Virus genome (UHGV): UHGV-0305822 | Strand: one strand, 5' to 3' | Length of the DNA stretch: 64,000 nt | Origin: a virus | Shown here: one piece after another, positions 34,801 to 61,349 of the stretch | How the letters are laid out: each line of letters opens with the position of its first letter | Position numbering within the stretch: the first letter of the stretch is position 1 | Position numbers and translations under genes: made by a program | Notes under the pieces: model-generated | The model's input: only the letters and a program-made list of their open reading frames with translations | The model's database searches: none | Told to the model about the DNA's origin: nothing

Positions 34801-35346
34801 ATGAAACAAATACAGTTAACTGATCACGTTAATGCGTTTAAACACTTTCTGGATAACGCGGGTATAAAACCTGGCGAACAGACAGACGCATGGACTGCAC
34901 GTGTTTATGGAAGTATTGGCAAAGTCTGTGAATCCACGACAACACACGATGGGTTGTTTGTTGCTAAAGCAGTAGGTATTGCCTTGTGGGATCTTGCTGC
35001 CTTGGTTTACGTGATGAATAACGGGGATTTACGCCCCCTTGAAAAATCGTTACACCGACTACTAGCCATTAAGAAATGGAAAAACGAACATCCTGAGACA
35101 ATCGCGGTGACGTTGATGCCGGAAGCGGTACTTGCTATCAAAGCGGTGCGCAGTTGTACCGCACGCGCACAAATGGAGCGTCGACTACACCTCACGACGC
35201 TCTTTTATCAGTTGGCTAGAATTGTAAAGATGAACGGCCTAATCTTCGACCGGGTTCTACAAAACGGACGTATAAGTTGGACAGAAGAACTAAGCAGTTC
35301 TCCGTTCTATACAAAACTAAAACTTAAAGACATTTTGAAGGATTAA
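34801..35346 (+). CDS. hypothetical protein
   Basis: 181-aa ORF. Confidence 0.55.
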   Translation: MKQIQLTDHVNAFKHFLDNAGIKPGEQTDAWTARVYGSIGKVCESTTTHDGLFVAKAVGIALWDLAALVYVMNNGDLRPLEKSLHRLLAIKKWKNEHPETIAVTLMPEAVLAIKAVRSCTARAQMERRLHLTTLFYQLARIVKMNGLIFDRVLQNGRISWTEELSSSPFYTKLKLKDILKD

Positions 35347-35656: not shown

Positions 35657-35976
35657 TGGTTACGAACGACAATATCAAGAAAAAGATTGACGAAATTATA
35701 AGCGTCAGTTTAGATAGAATCGAATTAATTCCCGAAACTAAGGAGATCAAATATTACGTTCCTGCGGACGAACTATTTCCAGGTCTTCTTAGAATCTCAC
35801 CAAAAAAGGTTGAAGAGGCTAAACGACAATTCGAAGTTCGTGGCCTTAAGGTTGACATTGTTAACAAAAAACATTTCCATGTAACGTATAGCCAGGAAAA
35901 CATTATATTTAGTCCTGAACAAGCGCAACGTAATTTAGATATTTTAACGAAACGAATGGGGAATAATAACAAATGA
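35656..35976 (+). CDS. hypothetical protein
   Basis: 106-aa ORF with ATGA-type overlaps on both sides. Confidence 0.5.
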
Positions 35977-37007
35977 AACAGTATTTAGCGTTAATGCAAG
36001 ACATTCTGGATAACGGTGTTGTCAAGAAAGACCGCACAGGTGTAGGGACACTATCTGTATTTGGTCGTCAACTACGTTTTGATCTGAAAGAAGGTTTCCC
36101 ATTAGTTACTACGAAGAAGGTTCACCTGAAAAGTATCATTCATGAACTGTTGTGGTTCTTAAACGGTGACACTAACGTGAAGTACCTGCAAGAGAACGGG
36201 GTAAAAATTTGGAATGCATGGAGTGATGAAGAGGGGAACTTAGGGCCAGTTTATGGTAAACAATGGCGCGAATGGCGCGACTGTAAAGTTGTGGAGTGTC
36301 ATGACGTAAGACGTACACAACAACTAATGCAACGGGGTTACAAGTATATTGGGAATATGAAGGAAGATGGTACGACGTATTTGGTTTATGAAAAAGCACA
36401 TGACCAGATCAGCAAAGTTATCCGACAGCTTCGTGAAGACCCTGACTCCCGCCGTATTATCGTTAGCGCCTGGAATGTAAGTGACCTGGACGATATGGCA
36501 CTTAATCCATGTCACAACTACTTCCAGTTCTACACAACGGAAATGACACTGCTTGAGCGACTGGATTGGTACGAAGCAAATGAACCGGAAAAATTTGCGA
36601 ACGCGCCACTTATTAATCACGAAGATATTGATGATGAAGAACGACTTCATGAAACTTTAGATCGTGAAGGTATCCCTCGTCGTAAGCTTTCATGTTTTTA
36701 CATGATGCGGAGCAACGATGTCGCATTAGGAAAACCGTTCAACATCGCGTCATACGCTCTGCTAACTCATGTGGTTGCCCAACAAGTGAATATGGTTCCC
36801 GATGAGTTAGTTTATAGTGGGGTCGATGTGCATTTATATCTGAACCACCTCGATCAAATAAAACTCCAGTTGACACGTGAGCCGTACCCGTTACCTAAAT
36901 TGGTTATTAAACGTAAACCCGAATCTATCTTCGACTACAAATACGAGGACTTTGAAGCAGTCGGTTACCAATCACACCCACACATCGCCATGCCTGTCGC
37001 GGTGTAA
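35973..37007 (+). CDS. thyA: thymidylate synthase (ThyA family) with two in-frame insertions
   Basis: by-eye comparison with E. coli ThyA from memory: MKQYL..DRTG.GTLS.FG...[34 protein letters not shown], catalytic Cys in [40 protein letters not shown]; 344 aa versus 264 aa in E. coli. Confidence 0.85.
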
Positions 37008-37036
37008 ACTACCACTTAACTAAAAGGAACGATAAA

Positions 37037-37483
37037 ATGTCTAAAACTCGTGTTAACTATAACATCGTAGTAGAAGAATTATCAAAAGGTTTAACTGATC
37101 TGGATTCCAAAGATAATCCGTTTACCGATCGTTATGGAGCCAAAGCTTTATCTGAGTTCCGTACTATCCGCTACGGTACAGGTAGACAGACAGGACTTAC
37201 AGACTTTGCTGTCGAGTTAGCTAAGAACCATAAAGGAAAGGTATTATTCGTTAATCCGAAAGGGTTCTTAGAGGACGATGTGCTATTCCGTTTGGGTCTC
37301 GAAGACTTGCCGGAGAATATCACGCAAATCATCGGTTACCAAATGGGTACAGAAAAAGAAAAATACAGTCTTGTTATTGTAGACAACGCTGGGGTTTTCT
37401 TTAGCATTTTCCGTTACATGAAGTTCTTTCGCTTACTGGCAAACTCAGTAACTAAAGACGTTGTAATACATTTAATGGGTTAG
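37037..37483 (+). CDS. hypothetical protein
   Basis: 148-aa ORF; SD aaaggaacg. Confidence 0.55.
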   Translation: MSKTRVNYNIVVEELSKGLTDLDSKDNPFTDRYGAKALSEFRTIRYGTGRQTGLTDFAVELAKNHKGKVLFVNPKGFLEDDVLFRLGLEDLPENITQIIGYQMGTEKEKYSLVIVDNAGVFFSIFRYMKFFRLLANSVTKDVVIHLMG

Positions 37484-37502
37484 TTGGTGATAAGGAAAAT
37501 TT

Positions 37503-37676
37503 ATGTTGGGTGATGTTCTTAATTTCACGATAACGTATTTCGAGCCGAAGAAGTTCCGTACCATTGTCACACGTTATTGTAAAGGGCCGAACAAAGGACG
37601 TAAACGTTTCCAAGTAATTCAACTTGATTATTCCAAGTTCCTTGAAACTAACCCGTTCGAAAAGGAAGTGCGATGA
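37503..37676 (+). CDS. small hypothetical protein (57 aa), putative
   Basis: SD gataaggaaaat then ATG; stop overlaps the next ATG (ATGA); not in the ORF track. Confidence 0.3.
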   Translation: MLGDVLNFTITYFEPKKFRTIVTRYCKGPNKGRKRFQVIQLDYSKFLETNPFEKEVR

Positions 37677-37897
37677 AGAAACCACGCTTTCACAGCCTTA
37701 GATACTTTACAGGTACTGTATATTTTATTGGCTACAACCGTGTACGTAAGGGTCCTGGTAGGTCGAAGGTGCGCGTTGTACAATATAAAGAGGCACCGCC
37801 AAGTCTACCACGGTTGGCAATGCTACTATCACCATTTGCCAATCTTAAAATCAAAACTGTTAACCCCTTTGTAAGAAATTTGGAAACTAAAAAATGA
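37673..37897 (+). CDS. small basic hypothetical protein
   Basis: 74-aa ORF rich in R and K. Confidence 0.4.
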   Translation: MKKPRFHSLRYFTGTVYFIGYNRVRKGPGRSKVRVVQYKEAPPSLPRLAMLLSPFANLKIKTVNPFVRNLETKK

Positions 37898-38037
37898 CTG
37901 AAGAAGTTAAAGTAGAAACCGTTAAAGAAACTGATGAATTTGCAATCCCTGGGTTAGACCCGGAAGCTACCGTAGAGAAGGGTGCTGACCCAACTACGGA
38001 AGACGATAACTGCTCAGGCGGGGCTTGCAAAATTTAA
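37894..38037 (+). CDS. small acidic peptide (47 aa) ending in CSGGACKI, putative
   Basis: ATGA overlap with upstream stop; SD ggaaactaaaaa; followed directly by a terminator. Confidence 0.3.
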   Translation: MTEEVKVETVKETDEFAIPGLDPEATVEKGADPTTEDDNCSGGACKI

Positions 38038-38045
38038 CAGTTCCT

Positions 38046-38084
38046 GGGGTGCTTATGTAGCACCCCTAATCCTTATTCTTTTTG
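38046..38084 (+). terminator. intrinsic terminator
   Basis: ggggtgcttatgtagcacccc hairpin followed by a T-rich run. Confidence 0.65.
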
Positions 38085-38106
38085 TTTAAACTAATGGAGT
38101 TTTAAA

Positions 38107-38940
38107 ATGGGCGAACGTTTTGACATCAACACTATTTACAACATCGTGGTTAATCCTGGTCAACACCTGGAAGAAGTTAACGCACAACTGCGCGCTCTGA
38201 ATGAGAATGCAGTACAGTTCGATGCCATTTACACAATTGGTGTAAACCCTGGTACCAACCGTATTCGTGTAGAAGGTAAACGCCACACCGGTAATCAAGA
38301 ACTGGATATTGAAACGATTGTAGCGCCTATTAAGCTTACCGATGCCGTTTATAACGGTACGGTAATGCATACAGAATCTGTTCTAGTTTGCACGATCGCA
38401 AAATGTGTAAAACTCGTTAAAGGTTGGTCTAAAGAACGTGGTATTCTCGATAACGGTAAACTGGAAACCCAAATCACGAAGTTCTTTGAAGAGTTAGGTG
38501 AAATTGCGGCGGGTATCAGTAAAAACAAACCTGAACTGATCATGGATGGCATTGGTGATGCGTTGGTGGTTCTGGTAAACATCATCGAATTAGGGGATGC
38601 GTATTCTGGTCACCTTACAGTGGCAGAAGACTGCATCGAGTCTGGTCTACGCTTAAACGTGGAAGATGTAGCTGAAGTTGAAGAAAATTTAAACAACGCT
38701 GGATACCCACATCAACAATACCTTCACGCTATTGAAAGTTTTGCCACAACCTTTATGGAAGGTAAAGATCATGGTTTCGATTTCGTTAGCCTGGGTTTAG
38801 CCCATCTTGCCCGCATCGCCTTGTATTACAAACTGGATATTCGCCATTGTTTCTCTTTGGCCTGGCACGAAATCAAAGACCGTAAAGGTTATCTGAACGC
38901 CGACGGTATCTTTGTAAAAGAAGCAGACCTGGCGAAATAA
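38107..38940 (+). CDS. protein with C-terminal MazG-like nucleotide pyrophosphohydrolase domain (tentative)
   Basis: C-terminal half has FEELGEIAAG and IGDALVVLVNIIELGD, reminiscent of MazG/all-alpha NTP-PPase EExxE and DxxGD motifs; N-terminal 100 aa unassigned. Confidence 0.5.
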   Translation: MGERFDINTIYNIVVNPGQHLEEVNAQLRALNENAVQFDAIYTIGVNPGTNRIRVEGKRHTGNQELDIETIVAPIKLTDAVYNGTVMHTESVLVCTIAKCVKLVKGWSKERGILDNGKLETQITKFFEELGEIAAGISKNKPELIMDGIGDALVVLVNIIELGDAYSGHLTVAEDCIESGLRLNVEDVAEVEENLNNAGYPHQQYLHAIESFATTFMEGKDHGFDFVSLGLAHLARIALYYKLDIRHCFSLAWHEIKDRKGYLNADGIFVKEADLAK

Positions 38941-38945
38941 ATAAA

Positions 38946-39000
38946 AGTACCTACCTCCTCTCGGAGGTAGGTAGACTTTCTTATTTTTTTTTCTTTTTTA
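38946..39000. terminator. bidirectional intrinsic terminator between convergent genes
   Basis: tacctacctcctctcggaggtaggtag hairpin followed by a long T-run on plus and A/T-rich flank on minus. Confidence 0.65.
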
Positions 39001-39561
39001 AGCGCCTGGAACAATCCCAGAAGAGATATACGTCAAACCGTCAAGTTCAGTGACTTTAATCAACTTCGAAATATCCTTACCGTCAGACGGCAGCTCTGTT
39101 AAGTACACCTCCAGCCGCCCTGTCCACGCCAAAGATGTCCCATTCATGGTAATGATGGTTTTATCTTTGCTGTCTGGTGCAGCTGTTGGATTCTCAACTT
39201 CGTCGTCAGTAATCTGTAAATTGTACTTATTGCGGAAAAGCTGTAGTACCTCAGATACCGTAGCCGCATTAACACCCGCAACAGAAACTACAAAGTCACC
39301 TAAGAGGTGCTCTAAATCCAAACGACGATAAATAACGTCAATTTTACCAAACGTTTTCTGTTCAATAATTCCCTGGACGCTAAGTTGGGTATTTAATCGC
39401 GTAAATTGGGTTTCTGGTGTTTCTACCGCAGGAATATGTGACGGTGTACCAAAATTCAACTTATCGATTGTAATACCTTTCTCTACCAAACCAGGATTCT
39501 TTTTTACTAATAACTCATAAACCAGTTGTTTTCCTGATTTACCTAATAGCGTATTAGCCAT
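38998..39561 (-). CDS. hypothetical protein (possibly virion-associated)
   Basis: 187-aa minus ORF in an operon with the large minus-strand genes. Confidence 0.6.
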   Translation of the reverse strand: MANTLLGKSGKQLVYELLVKKNPGLVEKGITIDKLNFGTPSHIPAVETPETQFTRLNTQLSVQGIIEQKTFGKIDVIYRRLDLEHLLGDFVVSVAGVNAATVSEVLQLFRNKYNLQITDDEVENPTAAPDSKDKTIITMNGTSLAWTGRLEVYLTELPSDGKDISKLIKVTELDGLTYISSGIVPGA

Positions 39562-59180: not shown

Positions 59181-59732
59181 ATGTTCAATTTAGATAGTGA
59201 CGGCGTGTTCGCGAGTTGGCGTAAATACGTGCTGACCCACCACTTTCAAGGAATGTCCATACAAGAATTTCATGGAATGCCGGAATTGCACCGCCGTGCA
59301 CTGGTCCGGGAAATGTATTTAAAGGACCCGGATCTTTTCTATAAACTAGACCCTATACCCGAGGCCGCAAAAATCCTCGAAACGGTAGAAAGTCTGGGGG
59401 AATGCTGGGCGATATTAACGTCGGGTTCGGAAGACCATTTCGATCACGACCGTGTTGTTGAGTGTAAAAAATTATTCTTCGAGAAACACTTTGGTGTGCC
59501 TGGTCACAAAGTTATCGTAACCACAAACTCTGCAGAAAAGGCGACTTACGCTGATAAGGGGAGATTGTTAGTGGATGACTATGGCCGGAATTGCCGTGAG
59601 TGGGTGTTAAAGAACGGGACCGCGATCTATACGCGGACGGATGAGCCTGACGTTGACGCCATTTGCCGACAACTCAGAACATTCGCAGAAAATCCCTTCG
59701 AATACTCAGGTCAGATTTTGTGCGTGCAGTAA
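59181..59732 (+). CDS. HAD-superfamily hydrolase, 5'(3')-deoxyribonucleotidase-like (tentative)
   Basis: N-terminal FNLDSDGVFASW resembles HAD motif I (DxDGV); LLVDDYGRN resembles the motif with paired Asp; SD aaaggataatc. Confidence 0.45.
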   Translation: MFNLDSDGVFASWRKYVLTHHFQGMSIQEFHGMPELHRRALVREMYLKDPDLFYKLDPIPEAAKILETVESLGECWAILTSGSEDHFDHDRVVECKKLFFEKHFGVPGHKVIVTTNSAEKATYADKGRLLVDDYGRNCREWVLKNGTAIYTRTDEPDVDAICRQLRTFAENPFEYSGQILCVQ

Positions 59733-60677: not shown

Positions 60678-61349
60678 ATGGAAGCTACTGAAATTAATAA
60701 ATTCTGGGAACGTGTACTTAGCCACTTCCGCGATTTCTATCGCTATACCGATAGTGCACATCGACTAGACCACATTCTTTCTGTGAAGTCGAACGCTGTT
60801 CGTATCGCTTACCTGTTGAACGAAACTCAACACTTAAAGAATGTTCTGGTTGCTGTGGCAGCGCACGATATTTTCTCCACACCTGCTGACCGTGCCTCCC
60901 ACCACATCAAAGCATTCAATTACGTGCTTGATTCTGCACCTATTCTCAGACGTCGCTTTAAACTCACCTCCGACGATGTAACCGAGGTAGCGTATGCAGT
61001 ATTAGAGCATCGGAGTTCCCACAAAGGTGGTTATAATTCCATTGTTTCTGAAATTGTCGCTGCCGCCGATCGCGGTATCCCTACCGTCGAAGAAGTTAAA
61101 AATTACATGCACCGCTCTTACTTATACGCACGTGACCATGGAAAATCCGTGACCGATTCAAAATTCCATGCAATCAGCCACGTGCAAAATAAGTTCGGTC
61201 GTAATGGTAAATCTCGTGTTCCTGATTGGTATAACGCATTGTTTGCGAAAGAAATCTTGGAACGCCAAGAGTACGTTGAAATGCTCGACTTAGCGTATTT
61301 CACCGACGAAATCATCACTGGCTTAGAAAGCCGTCTTCAACAACAGTAA
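60678..61349 (+). CDS. possible HD-domain phosphohydrolase (tentative)
   Basis: AHRLDHIL...VAVAAHDIFSTPADRASHH...AAADRG is compatible with an H...HD...D metal-binding pattern. Confidence 0.35.
   Translation: MEATEINKFWERVLSHFRDFYRYTDSAHRLDHILSVKSNAVRIAYLLNETQHLKNVLVAVAAHDIFSTPADRASHHIKAFNYVLDSAPILRRRFKLTSDDVTEVAYAVLEHRSSHKGGYNSIVSEIVAAADRGIPTVEEVKNYMHRSYLYARDHGKSVTDSKFHAISHVQNKFGRNGKSRVPDWYNALFAKEILERQEYVEMLDLAYFTDEIITGLESRLQQQ

What the first reader, a model, noticed from the sequence alone, without database searches (positions are those of the whole stretch)
38107..38940. MazG-like pyrophosphohydrolase domain fused to an unassigned N-terminal domain
The C-terminal half carries MazG-like motifs (FEELGEIAAG, IGDALVVLVNIIELGD). 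The first 100 aa or so are unassigned and contain an internal duplication-like pattern (IYNIVVNPGQH... and IYTIGVNPGTN...). Together with ThyA, the HAD nucleotidase-like ORF (59181..59732) and the possible HD hydrolase (60678..61349), this suggests phage control of the nucleotide pool.
Basis: partly seen in the sequence, partly recalled or inferred. Interest (0 to 1): 0.4.

Follow-up and report, generated by a model that had tools for sequence, protein, structure and literature searches.

The report
Jumbo-phage MazG-like pyrophosphatase with extra domain
This gene of a giant Salmonella/E. coli phage encodes a MazG-type nucleotide pyrophosphatase joined to a small N-terminal domain found only in this phage group; the family is already annotated in related phages, so the find is sound but fairly ordinary.

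Summary
The ORF 38107..38940 (+, 277 aa) is real, conserved and under purifying selection.

- **Catalytic motif.** The first half, EExxE, is intact. The second half is D-G-x-G-D instead of the canonical ExxD.
- **Internal repeat.** The IYNIVVNPG/IYTIGVNPG similarity is real but clade-specific. It is not a domain duplication.
- **Substrate.** Unknown. The related phage phiEaH2 encodes ThyA, DHFR and Tmk but no trimeric dUTPase, so dUTP (or dCTP) hydrolysis feeding ThyA is my leading guess.

Homologues with the same architecture are already annotated as 'mazG' in GenBank. This is a new member of a known kind, of modest interest.

The parts
38107..38940 (+). Complete CDS, 277 aa plus stop: two-domain MazG-like protein
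   Evidence: ORF list and translation. phrog_7855 E 6.9e-68. More than 120 database clusters at 79-98% identity. Whole-gene dN/dS 0.16 against 81%-identical relatives. The identical protein is encoded with 13-21 synonymous differences in four other contigs.
38107..38391 (+). N-terminal lineage-specific alpha+beta domain (aa 1-95): b1(4-14) a1(17-31) b2(38-46) b3(53-59) b4(68-73) b5(82-93)
38128..38160 (+). Repeat-like segment 1 (aa 8-18, NTIYNIVVNPG): end of strand b1 plus NPG turn
   Evidence: Self-match score 38 against shuffles 21.5 +/- 4.2. Followed by helix a1 in the model.
38221..38253 (+). Repeat-like segment 2 (aa 39-49, DAIYTIGVNPG): strand b2 plus NPG turn
   Evidence: Followed by strand b3, not a helix, so the two segments are not equivalent structural units. 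Not conserved as a repeat in the family.
38392..38940 (+). C-terminal MazG-superfamily (all-alpha NTP pyrophosphohydrolase) domain, aa 96-277
38488..38502 (+). EExxE metal-binding motif (E128 E129 L G E132)
   Evidence: E128 and E129 are invariant and E132 is at least 90% conserved in 36 family members. Aligned to the EEvGE motif of SSO3215 MazG.
38545..38559 (+). Variant second acidic motif D147-G-I-G-D151 (canonical MazG: x-E-x-x-D)
   Evidence: D147 is invariant; G148 and D151 are at least 90% conserved. D-[GSD]-[IV]-G-D is present in all 8 sequences of A3. HMMER aligns G148 to the canonical Glu.
38599..38811 (+). Variable helical insertion (aa ~165-235) between core helix 3 and the C-terminal helix
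   Evidence: Absent from the 104-aa Staphylococcus phage Terranova homologue and variable in length among phage homologues. dN/dS 0.29-0.32 against 0.07-0.10 elsewhere. Low-confidence loop at 167-170.
38854..38928 (+). Conserved C-terminal motif S250...W253-x-E-I-K-D-R-x-G-x-L-N-x-D-G-x-F-x-K-x-x-D274 (helix end plus beta-hairpin)
   Evidence: Invariant columns S250 A252 W253 E255 I256 K257 D258 R259 G261 L263 N264 D266 G267 F269 K271 D274. Shared with short phage MazG-like proteins. A role for K257/R259/K271 in phosphate binding is inferred.
38096..38099 (+). Shine-Dalgarno-like GGAG, 7 nt upstream of the ATG
   Evidence: Read directly from the sequence.
38046..38066 (+). Stable hairpin followed by a U-rich tract, between the preceding small ORF and this gene (terminator-like)
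   Evidence: RNA fold -16.1 kcal/mol, z -3.85, 0 of 200 shuffles as stable. Sequence.
38944..38979 (.). Bidirectional terminator-like hairpin between this gene and the convergent virion-protein gene (38998..39561, - strand)
   Evidence: Terminator scan on both strands, 11-bp stem at 38948-38973. Folds at -20.5 (+ strand) and -23.0 (- strand) kcal/mol, z -5.3 and -5.7. U-run downstream.

Best explanation
Shown or strongly supported: ORF 38107..38940 encodes a two-domain protein of a Seoul-like (SPN3US-related, phiKZ-type) jumbo phage. The C-terminal domain (aa 96-277) is a divergent member of the MazG / all-alpha nucleoside-triphosphate pyrophosphohydrolase superfamily. It has a core helical bundle, a variable helical insertion (aa ~165-235) and a conserved C-terminal K-D-R-K-G hairpin. 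Inferred mechanism: acidic residues E128/E129/E132 and D147/D151 hold Mg2+ ions that bind the triphosphate and activate water, conserved basic residues (K125, K139, K257, R259, K271) bind the phosphates, and the reaction is (d)NTP + H2O -> (d)NMP + PPi. The N-terminal domain (aa 1-95) is a lineage-specific beta-alpha-beta4 module with cystatin-like topology, as constrained as the catalytic core. I infer an accessory role (oligomerisation, regulation or partner binding), not catalysis. Best guess for the substrate (inference only, about 0.3): dUTP and/or dCTP. This would make dUMP for the nearby phage thymidylate synthase and keep uracil out of phage DNA, because this phage group has ThyA, DHFR and Tmk but no recognisable trimeric dUTPase.
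Confidence: 0.6

Rival explanations
1. The enzyme hydrolyses the alarmones (p)ppGpp rather than dNTPs. This would blunt the host stringent response or abortive-infection pathways, as reported for the phage MazG-like protein Atd1.
For: E. coli MazG and a Pectobacterium phage MazG-like protein (Atd1) are reported to deplete (p)ppGpp, and Atd1 protected against TIR-STING toxicity (bioRxiv 10.1101/2022.06.09.495361). This phage lineage persists in bacterial isolates (bioRxiv 10.1101/2024.12.31.630880), where control of host stress signalling could matter.
Against: Whether Atd1 belongs to this subfamily was not tested. A cyanophage MazG long assumed to hydrolyse ppGpp did not; that paper's title states it is unable to hydrolyse magic spot nucleotides (PMC6850273). 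The gene sits beside thyA in a nucleotide-metabolism context, not among known anti-defence genes.
Confidence: 0.15
2. It is a house-cleaning enzyme. It removes non-canonical or toxic nucleotides (oxidised dNTPs, dITP/XTP, or chain terminators such as viperin-made ddhNTPs) to protect phage replication.
For: House-cleaning is the generic role assigned to the all-alpha NTP-PPase superfamily, for example M. tuberculosis MazG (PMC3855555, PMC10014863). Short homologues are widespread in the replication modules of unrelated phages, with matches in 518 phage records.
Against: No specific evidence points to it. It does not explain the conserved linkage to thyA in this phage group or the lineage-specific N-domain.
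Confidence: 0.15
3. The protein is catalytically inactive. It would act as a nucleotide-binding, DNA-binding or regulatory protein, as some PHROG and GenBank annotations ('DNA binding protein') suggest, or like staphylococcal phage dUTPases that moonlight as signalling proteins.
For: The canonical Glu of the ExxD motif is Gly148. Related PHROGs and GenBank records carry 'DNA binding protein' labels. 5myd, a signalling dimeric dUTPase of a Staphylococcus phage, is a top structural match.
Against: E128, E129 and D147 are invariant and D151 and E132 nearly so, across sequences only 32-44% identical. That pattern is typical of a conserved active site. The 'DNA binding' labels are unexplained transfers, and no DNA-binding fold was found.
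Confidence: 0.07
4. The N-terminal region arose by tandem internal duplication of a ~30-aa unit.
For: IYNIVVNPG and IYTIGVNPG match 7 of 9 residues at an offset of 31. The self-match score of 38 was reached by only 2 of 300 shuffles.
Against: Only the window's close clade shows it. More distant members, including the SPN3US, Erwinia and CR5 groups, do not, apart from a weaker same-register match in P0126 (score 27). Profile-profile comparison of the two halves gives no match. In the model the first segment is followed by a helix and the second by a strand. The fold is a single beta-alpha-beta4 unit.
Confidence: 0.05

Closest known systems
'mazG nucleotide pyrophosphohydrolase' of SPN3US-like jumbo phages (PHROG phrog_7855; e.g. 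Erwinia phage phiEaH2 gp154, Escherichia phage EC001 MGA_233, Cronobacter phage CR5, Salmonella phage pSal-SNUABM-04)
   Same: Same two-domain architecture over the full length at 32-44% identity, the same invariant residues, and the same position downstream of thyA and next to convergent virion genes.
   Different: The window's clade has a shorter, different helical insertion (aa 165-235) and the clade-specific NPG/NPG repeat-like pattern. Some Erwinia-phage members carry an additional ~150-aa C-terminal extension. None has been characterised biochemically as far as I could find.
Canonical MazG-type NTP pyrophosphohydrolases (E. coli MazG 3CRA; S. solfataricus SSO3215 1VMG; B. subtilis YpjD 2GTA; Pfam PF03819)
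   Same: All-alpha helical bundle, EExxE motif, profile-level sequence similarity over helices 2-3.
   Different: The second motif is D-G-x-G-D rather than ExxD. There is an extra helical insertion, a C-terminal KDRKG beta-hairpin and a fused N-terminal alpha+beta domain. The window protein scores below the Pfam gathering cutoff.
Dimeric dUTPases (C. jejuni 1W2Y, L. major 2YAY, Staphylococcus phage 5MYD; Pfam dUTPase_2)
   Different: 7-11% identity and no Pfam dUTPase_2 hit. The extra helices here are poorly conserved, whereas (from my own knowledge, not tested here) those of dimeric dUTPases carry substrate-binding motifs. Uracil specificity is untested.
Characterised phage MazG-like enzymes: Atd1 (Pectobacterium phage PcCB7V), cyanophage MazG, MazZ of cyanophage S-2L (7ODY)
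   Different: Different subfamilies with different or disputed substrates ((p)ppGpp, dGTP/dCTP, dGTP). None has the N-terminal domain. Relationship to Atd1 was not tested.
Cystatin-like alpha+beta fold (for the N-terminal domain only)

Membership tests
MazG / all-alpha NTP pyrophosphohydrolase superfamily | All-alpha helical-bundle fold shared by MazG, HisE and dimeric dUTPases | tested here: met
MazG / all-alpha NTP pyrophosphohydrolase superfamily | Metal-binding signature EExxE ... ExxD | tested here: inconclusive
   EExxE is present and conserved (E128 and E129 invariant, E132 at least 90%). The second half reads D147-G148-I-G-D151: the canonical Glu position is Gly, with an invariant Asp one residue earlier. 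Rare members have D151N or E132V.
MazG / all-alpha NTP pyrophosphohydrolase superfamily | Score above the Pfam PF03819 gathering cutoff (22 bits) | tested here: not met
   17.2 bits, E 0.0064. 22 of 36 family members give hits at E 0.1 or better, best 0.0012. Homologous short phage proteins score 23.1-28.7 bits, so membership is transitive and at superfamily level.
MazG / all-alpha NTP pyrophosphohydrolase superfamily | Mg2+-dependent hydrolysis of (d)NTP to (d)NMP + PPi | not testable with these tools
   Needs an enzyme assay.
MazG / all-alpha NTP pyrophosphohydrolase superfamily | Homo-oligomer (dimer or tetramer) forming the active sites | not tested
   Only a monomer was modelled. No multimer prediction was available.
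phrog_7855 (jumbo-phage 'mazG nucleotide pyrophosphohydrolase') | Full-length profile match including the N-terminal domain | tested here: met
   E 6.9e-68, 230 bits. The N-domain alone matches only this PHROG, at E 3.1e-9.
Dimeric dUTPase (Pfam dUTPase_2) | Sequence-family membership | tested here: not met
   No Pfam dUTPase_2 hit at E 0.1 or better for any of the 36 members. No dUTPase among PDB profile hits.
Dimeric dUTPase (Pfam dUTPase_2) | Structural similarity over core plus additional helices | tested here: met
Dimeric dUTPase (Pfam dUTPase_2) | Specific hydrolysis of dUTP/dUDP | not testable with these tools
   Indirect support only: no trimeric Dut or Dcd found in phiEaH2 or in the window, and linkage to thyA.
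Cystatin superfamily (N-terminal domain) | Cystatin fold with significant structural similarity | tested here: inconclusive
Cystatin superfamily (N-terminal domain) | Q-x-V-x-G protease-binding loop | tested here: not met
   No such motif in aa 1-95, read directly from the translation.

The most novel reading that the evidence does not exclude
The MazG-like protein is the missing dUTPase/dCTPase of Seoul-like nucleus-forming jumbo phages, and its lineage-restricted cystatin-like N-terminal domain is a new regulatory or partner-binding module. For example, the domain could couple the enzyme to the phage thymidylate synthase or gate its activity during persistent infection. That would make it a dUTPase type with a non-canonical D-G-x-G-D metal site.
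Probability: 0.2. Interest if true: 0.45.

Novelty: new member of a known kind. Interest (0 to 1): 0.25.

Why it matters
The value is mostly for annotation. NCBI's pipeline calls close homologues 'hypothetical protein', NCBIfam has no model for them, and Pfam misses the window protein. The family can nevertheless be placed in the MazG superfamily with a defined domain boundary and candidate catalytic residues. If the enzyme proves to be the phage's own dUTPase or dCTPase, it would complete the thymidylate module (ThyA, DHFR, Tmk) of a jumbo-phage lineage now known to persist in many Salmonella and E. coli isolates. The N-terminal domain is a small, well-folded, strongly constrained orphan domain, which makes it a clean target for structural and functional work.

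Tried and rejected
- **PDB sequence searches.** The single protein and the A1 family profile found nothing relevant: only DARPin and ATP-synthase chance hits. Only the broader A3 profile reached MazG structures.
- **NCBIfam.** Only chance-level MazG hits at E ~0.1.
- **Internal duplication.** hhalign of aa 1-36 against aa 37-95 profiles gave E 0.3. Rejected as a family feature.
- **A second MazG-like gene at 34801..35346.** It shares phrog_10269 with this protein. BLASTP shows no similarity, there is no Pfam hit and no EExxE motif. Rejected.
- **The C-terminal extension of the 444-467-aa members as a copy of the N-domain.** No BLASTP alignment and no PHROG hit. Rejected.
- **Non-family hits of the N-domain profile** (P0197, P0199, P0200, P0207). 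These are repeat proteins with multiple partial matches. P0198 and P0203 are block-scrambled versions of the SPN3US-type protein, presumably assembly artefacts. All discounted.
- **Rfam scan of 36900-39200.** Nothing.
- **Sigma-70 promoter scan.** Nothing above chance, as expected for a phage with its own RNA polymerases.
- **Not done.** The third homologous-protein search was left unused because the exhaustive profile search had answered the N-domain question.

Full report
**Observation.** The window has one long ORF at exactly 38107..38940 on the + strand (ATG start, 277 aa).
- A GGAG lies 7 nt upstream of the ATG.
- The gene is bracketed by two stable hairpins with U-rich tails. The first, at 38046-38066, folds at -16.1 kcal/mol (z -3.9). 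The second, at 38944-38979, is bidirectional and shared with the convergent virion-protein gene; it folds at -20.5 and -23.0 kcal/mol (z below -5).
- The opposite-strand ORFs inside the gene (38086..38370 and 38349..38585) have no support.
- The + frame is conserved with a whole-gene dN/dS of 0.16. Four other contigs encode the identical protein with 13-21 purely synonymous differences.

**Where the window comes from.**
- DNA and protein searches place it in the SPN3US/phiEaH2 group of phiKZ-type jumbo phages. Conserved genes are about 75% identical in nucleotides to phiEaH2 and to the Salmonella SPFM phages. For this protein, no phage record exceeds 60% identity.
- More than 120 database clusters at 79-98% identity sit on ~220-226 kb contigs from Salmonella, E. 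coli and Shigella isolate assemblies.
- A circular 221,873-bp 'plasmid' of E. coli 98232 and a 222,441-bp 'plasmid' of Enterobacter ludwigii belong to the same lineage.
- This matches the 'Seoul-like persistent jumbo phages' described in bioRxiv 10.1101/2024.12.31.630880.

**C-terminal domain: sequence evidence.**
- Pfam gives only a sub-threshold MazG hit (aa 120-165, E 0.0064, 17.2 bits against a cutoff of 22). NCBIfam gives nothing useful.
- PHROGs is decisive. phrog_7855 'mazG nucleotide pyrophosphohydrolase' scores E 6.9e-68, and the 'MazG-like pyrophosphatase' families phrog_1992 and phrog_715 score 1e-37 and 1e-26.
- tblastn finds 518 phage records. In 51 of them the match covers at least 80% of the protein; the ones listed are SPN3US-like Escherichia, Salmonella and Erwinia phages at 32-41% identity. 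The rest match only aa ~100-275; they include Pbunavirus, Streptococcus, Vibrio, Acinetobacter, Staphylococcus and HP1 phages.
- Six of these short proteins align with the C-domain over its length. They share W107, R111, Q122, K125, E129, E132, D147, G150, D151 and the C-terminal EIKDRKG...G-x-FVKE-x-D motif. Four of them pass the Pfam MazG cutoff.
- A profile of that alignment retrieves MazG-superfamily structures as its ten best PDB hits: 1vmg E 1.1e-3, 5ie9, 3cra/3crc, 2gta, 2yxh, 1yvw, 2q73, 2q5z and 7ody.

**C-terminal domain: structure.**
- An AlphaFold2 model built on a 36-sequence family alignment is confident (pLDDT 88.3, pTM 0.79). Residues 97-256 are all-alpha, followed by a short hairpin.
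- Foldseek against PDB was not significant.
The MazG assignment stands at superfamily level.

**Active site.**
- The first motif, EExxE, is E128-E129-L-G-E132. E128 and E129 are invariant and E132 is at least 90% conserved.
- HMMER aligns the second motif, canonically x-E-x-x-D, to D147-G148-I-G-D151. The usual Glu is therefore Gly, and an invariant Asp precedes it.
- The same D-[GSD]-[IV]-G-D is present in all eight diverse phage sequences of A3. It is a subfamily trait, not a local degeneration.
- Two family clusters carry D151N (P0133) or E132V (P0131).
- I read this as a competent but variant metal site. That is an inference.
- The region aa ~165-235 is an insertion relative to the minimal 104-aa Staphylococcus phage homologue. 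It varies in length and sequence and evolves about four times faster than the rest (dN/dS 0.29-0.32 against 0.07-0.10).

**N-terminal domain.**
- Both the full-length model and a domain-only model (pLDDT 83.6) give b1(4-14)-a1(17-31)-b2(38-46)-b3(53-59)-b4(68-73)-b5(82-93).
- A profile of 26 N-domains was searched exhaustively against 1.84 billion representative proteins. It found only seven real clusters, all N-termini of 276-444-aa members of this same family. The other hits were repeat proteins and two block-scrambled assembly artefacts.
- Within PHROGs the domain matches only phrog_7855.
- Its dN/dS of 0.07-0.08 equals that of the catalytic core. It is a functional, lineage-restricted domain of unknown role.

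**The 'internal duplication'.**
- The match NTIYNIVVNPG / DAIYTIGVNPG is unusual for this sequence: score 38 against 21.5 +/- 4.2, reached by 2 of 300 shuffles.
- It occurs only in the window's close clade, with one weaker same-register match in P0126 (score 27). The two half-profiles do not match each other.
- In the model, the first segment is followed by a helix and the second by a strand.
- It is best seen as two strand-plus-turn segments that happen to resemble each other, not as a duplication.

**Function.**
- The gene lies 1.1 kb downstream of a bona fide thymidylate synthase (Pfam E 1.7e-109). The thyA...mazG arrangement next to convergent virion genes is conserved in EC001, in phiEaH2 and in the clade's own contigs.
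- The complete phiEaH2 annotation lists thymidylate kinase, ThyA, MazG, an HD-domain protein and DHFR. It lists no dUTPase, dCMP deaminase or ribonucleotide reductase.
- From established knowledge, enterobacteria make most dUMP through dCTP -> dUTP -> dUMP. A phage that boosts dTTP synthesis would therefore profit from its own dUTPase.
- Together with the dimeric-dUTPase structural matches, this makes dUTP (and/or dCTP) hydrolysis my leading guess, at about 0.3.
- The guess is weak. The structural ranking may reflect size alone, short homologues occur in phages without thyA, and no member has been assayed.
- Published phage MazG-like enzymes differ in substrate. Atd1 depletes (p)ppGpp (10.1101/2022.06.09.495361), while a cyanophage MazG cannot hydrolyse those alarmones (PMC6850273). 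A jumbo-phage survey notes only that MazG-like enzymes are scattered across groups (PMC7824862).

**Comparison and verdict.**
- The protein is a member of an already named phage family (phrog_7855, GenBank 'mazG nucleotide pyrophosphohydrolase'), itself a divergent branch of the MazG superfamily. PGAP still labels the close homologue 'hypothetical protein'.
- This analysis adds a domain boundary, a confident model, the variant D-G-x-G-D site, the strict lineage restriction and strong constraint of the N-domain, and the absence of a conventional dUTPase in a complete related genome (phiEaH2).
- It is a new member of a known kind, with modest interest (0.25).

Noticed in passing
window 35973..37007; loci L013/L014 1750-3057; L018 1-958: The phage thyA is intact in the window, at 344 aa against a 266-position Pfam model (so it carries ~78 extra residues). 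In close relatives it is called as two ORFs (252 aa + 95 aa) separated by ~260 nt (L013, L014), and in L018 as a 511-aa product. This could be an intron, a mobile insertion or a fusion in thyA, reminiscent of the T4 td intron.
   Followed up: no
whole window; NZ_CP173450.1 (L020); NZ_CP134650.1: This jumbo-phage lineage is deposited as circular ~222-kb 'plasmids' in complete E. coli and Enterobacter ludwigii genomes. It also occurs on ~220-226 kb contigs in many Salmonella, E. coli and Shigella isolate assemblies. This fits the persistent 'Seoul-like' jumbo phages described in bioRxiv 10.1101/2024.12.31.630880.
   Followed up: partly
window 59181..59732: The 183-aa ORF matches phrog_2643 '5'-3' deoxyribonucleotidase' (E 1.4e-17) and, below cutoff, Pfam NT5C (E 1e-4).
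   Followed up: partly
window 60678..61349: The 223-aa ORF has no Pfam HD hit and matches only phrog_3921 (unknown function). It contains an H...HD pattern (AHRLDH ... AAHDI), and the gene of the same length at the matching map position in phiEaH2 (gp170) is annotated 'putative phage HD domain protein'.
   Followed up: partly
window 34801..35346: The 181-aa ORF hits phrog_10269 (E 1.6e-11), a family that the MazG-like protein also hits weakly (E 2.6e-6). It shows no pairwise similarity to the MazG-like protein and has no EExxE motif.
   Followed up: partly
proteins P0144, P0147-P0153 (family members of 420-467 aa): A subgroup that includes Erwinia phage pEa_SNUABM_11 carries an extra ~150-aa C-terminal extension after the MazG domain. 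The extension has no Pfam or PHROG match and no similarity to the N-domain.
   Followed up: partly
proteins P0198 (127 aa) and P0203 (265 aa): Two database proteins consist of blocks of the SPN3US-type MazG sequence in reversed block order. These are probably assembly or gene-calling artefacts in Logan unitigs.
   Followed up: no
window 37484..38106: Between the phrog_2586 gene (37037..37483) and the MazG-like gene lie three small ORFs of 57, 74 and 47 aa. Only the last (37894..38037) has PHROG matches. The number and size of small ORFs here vary among close relatives.
   Followed up: no
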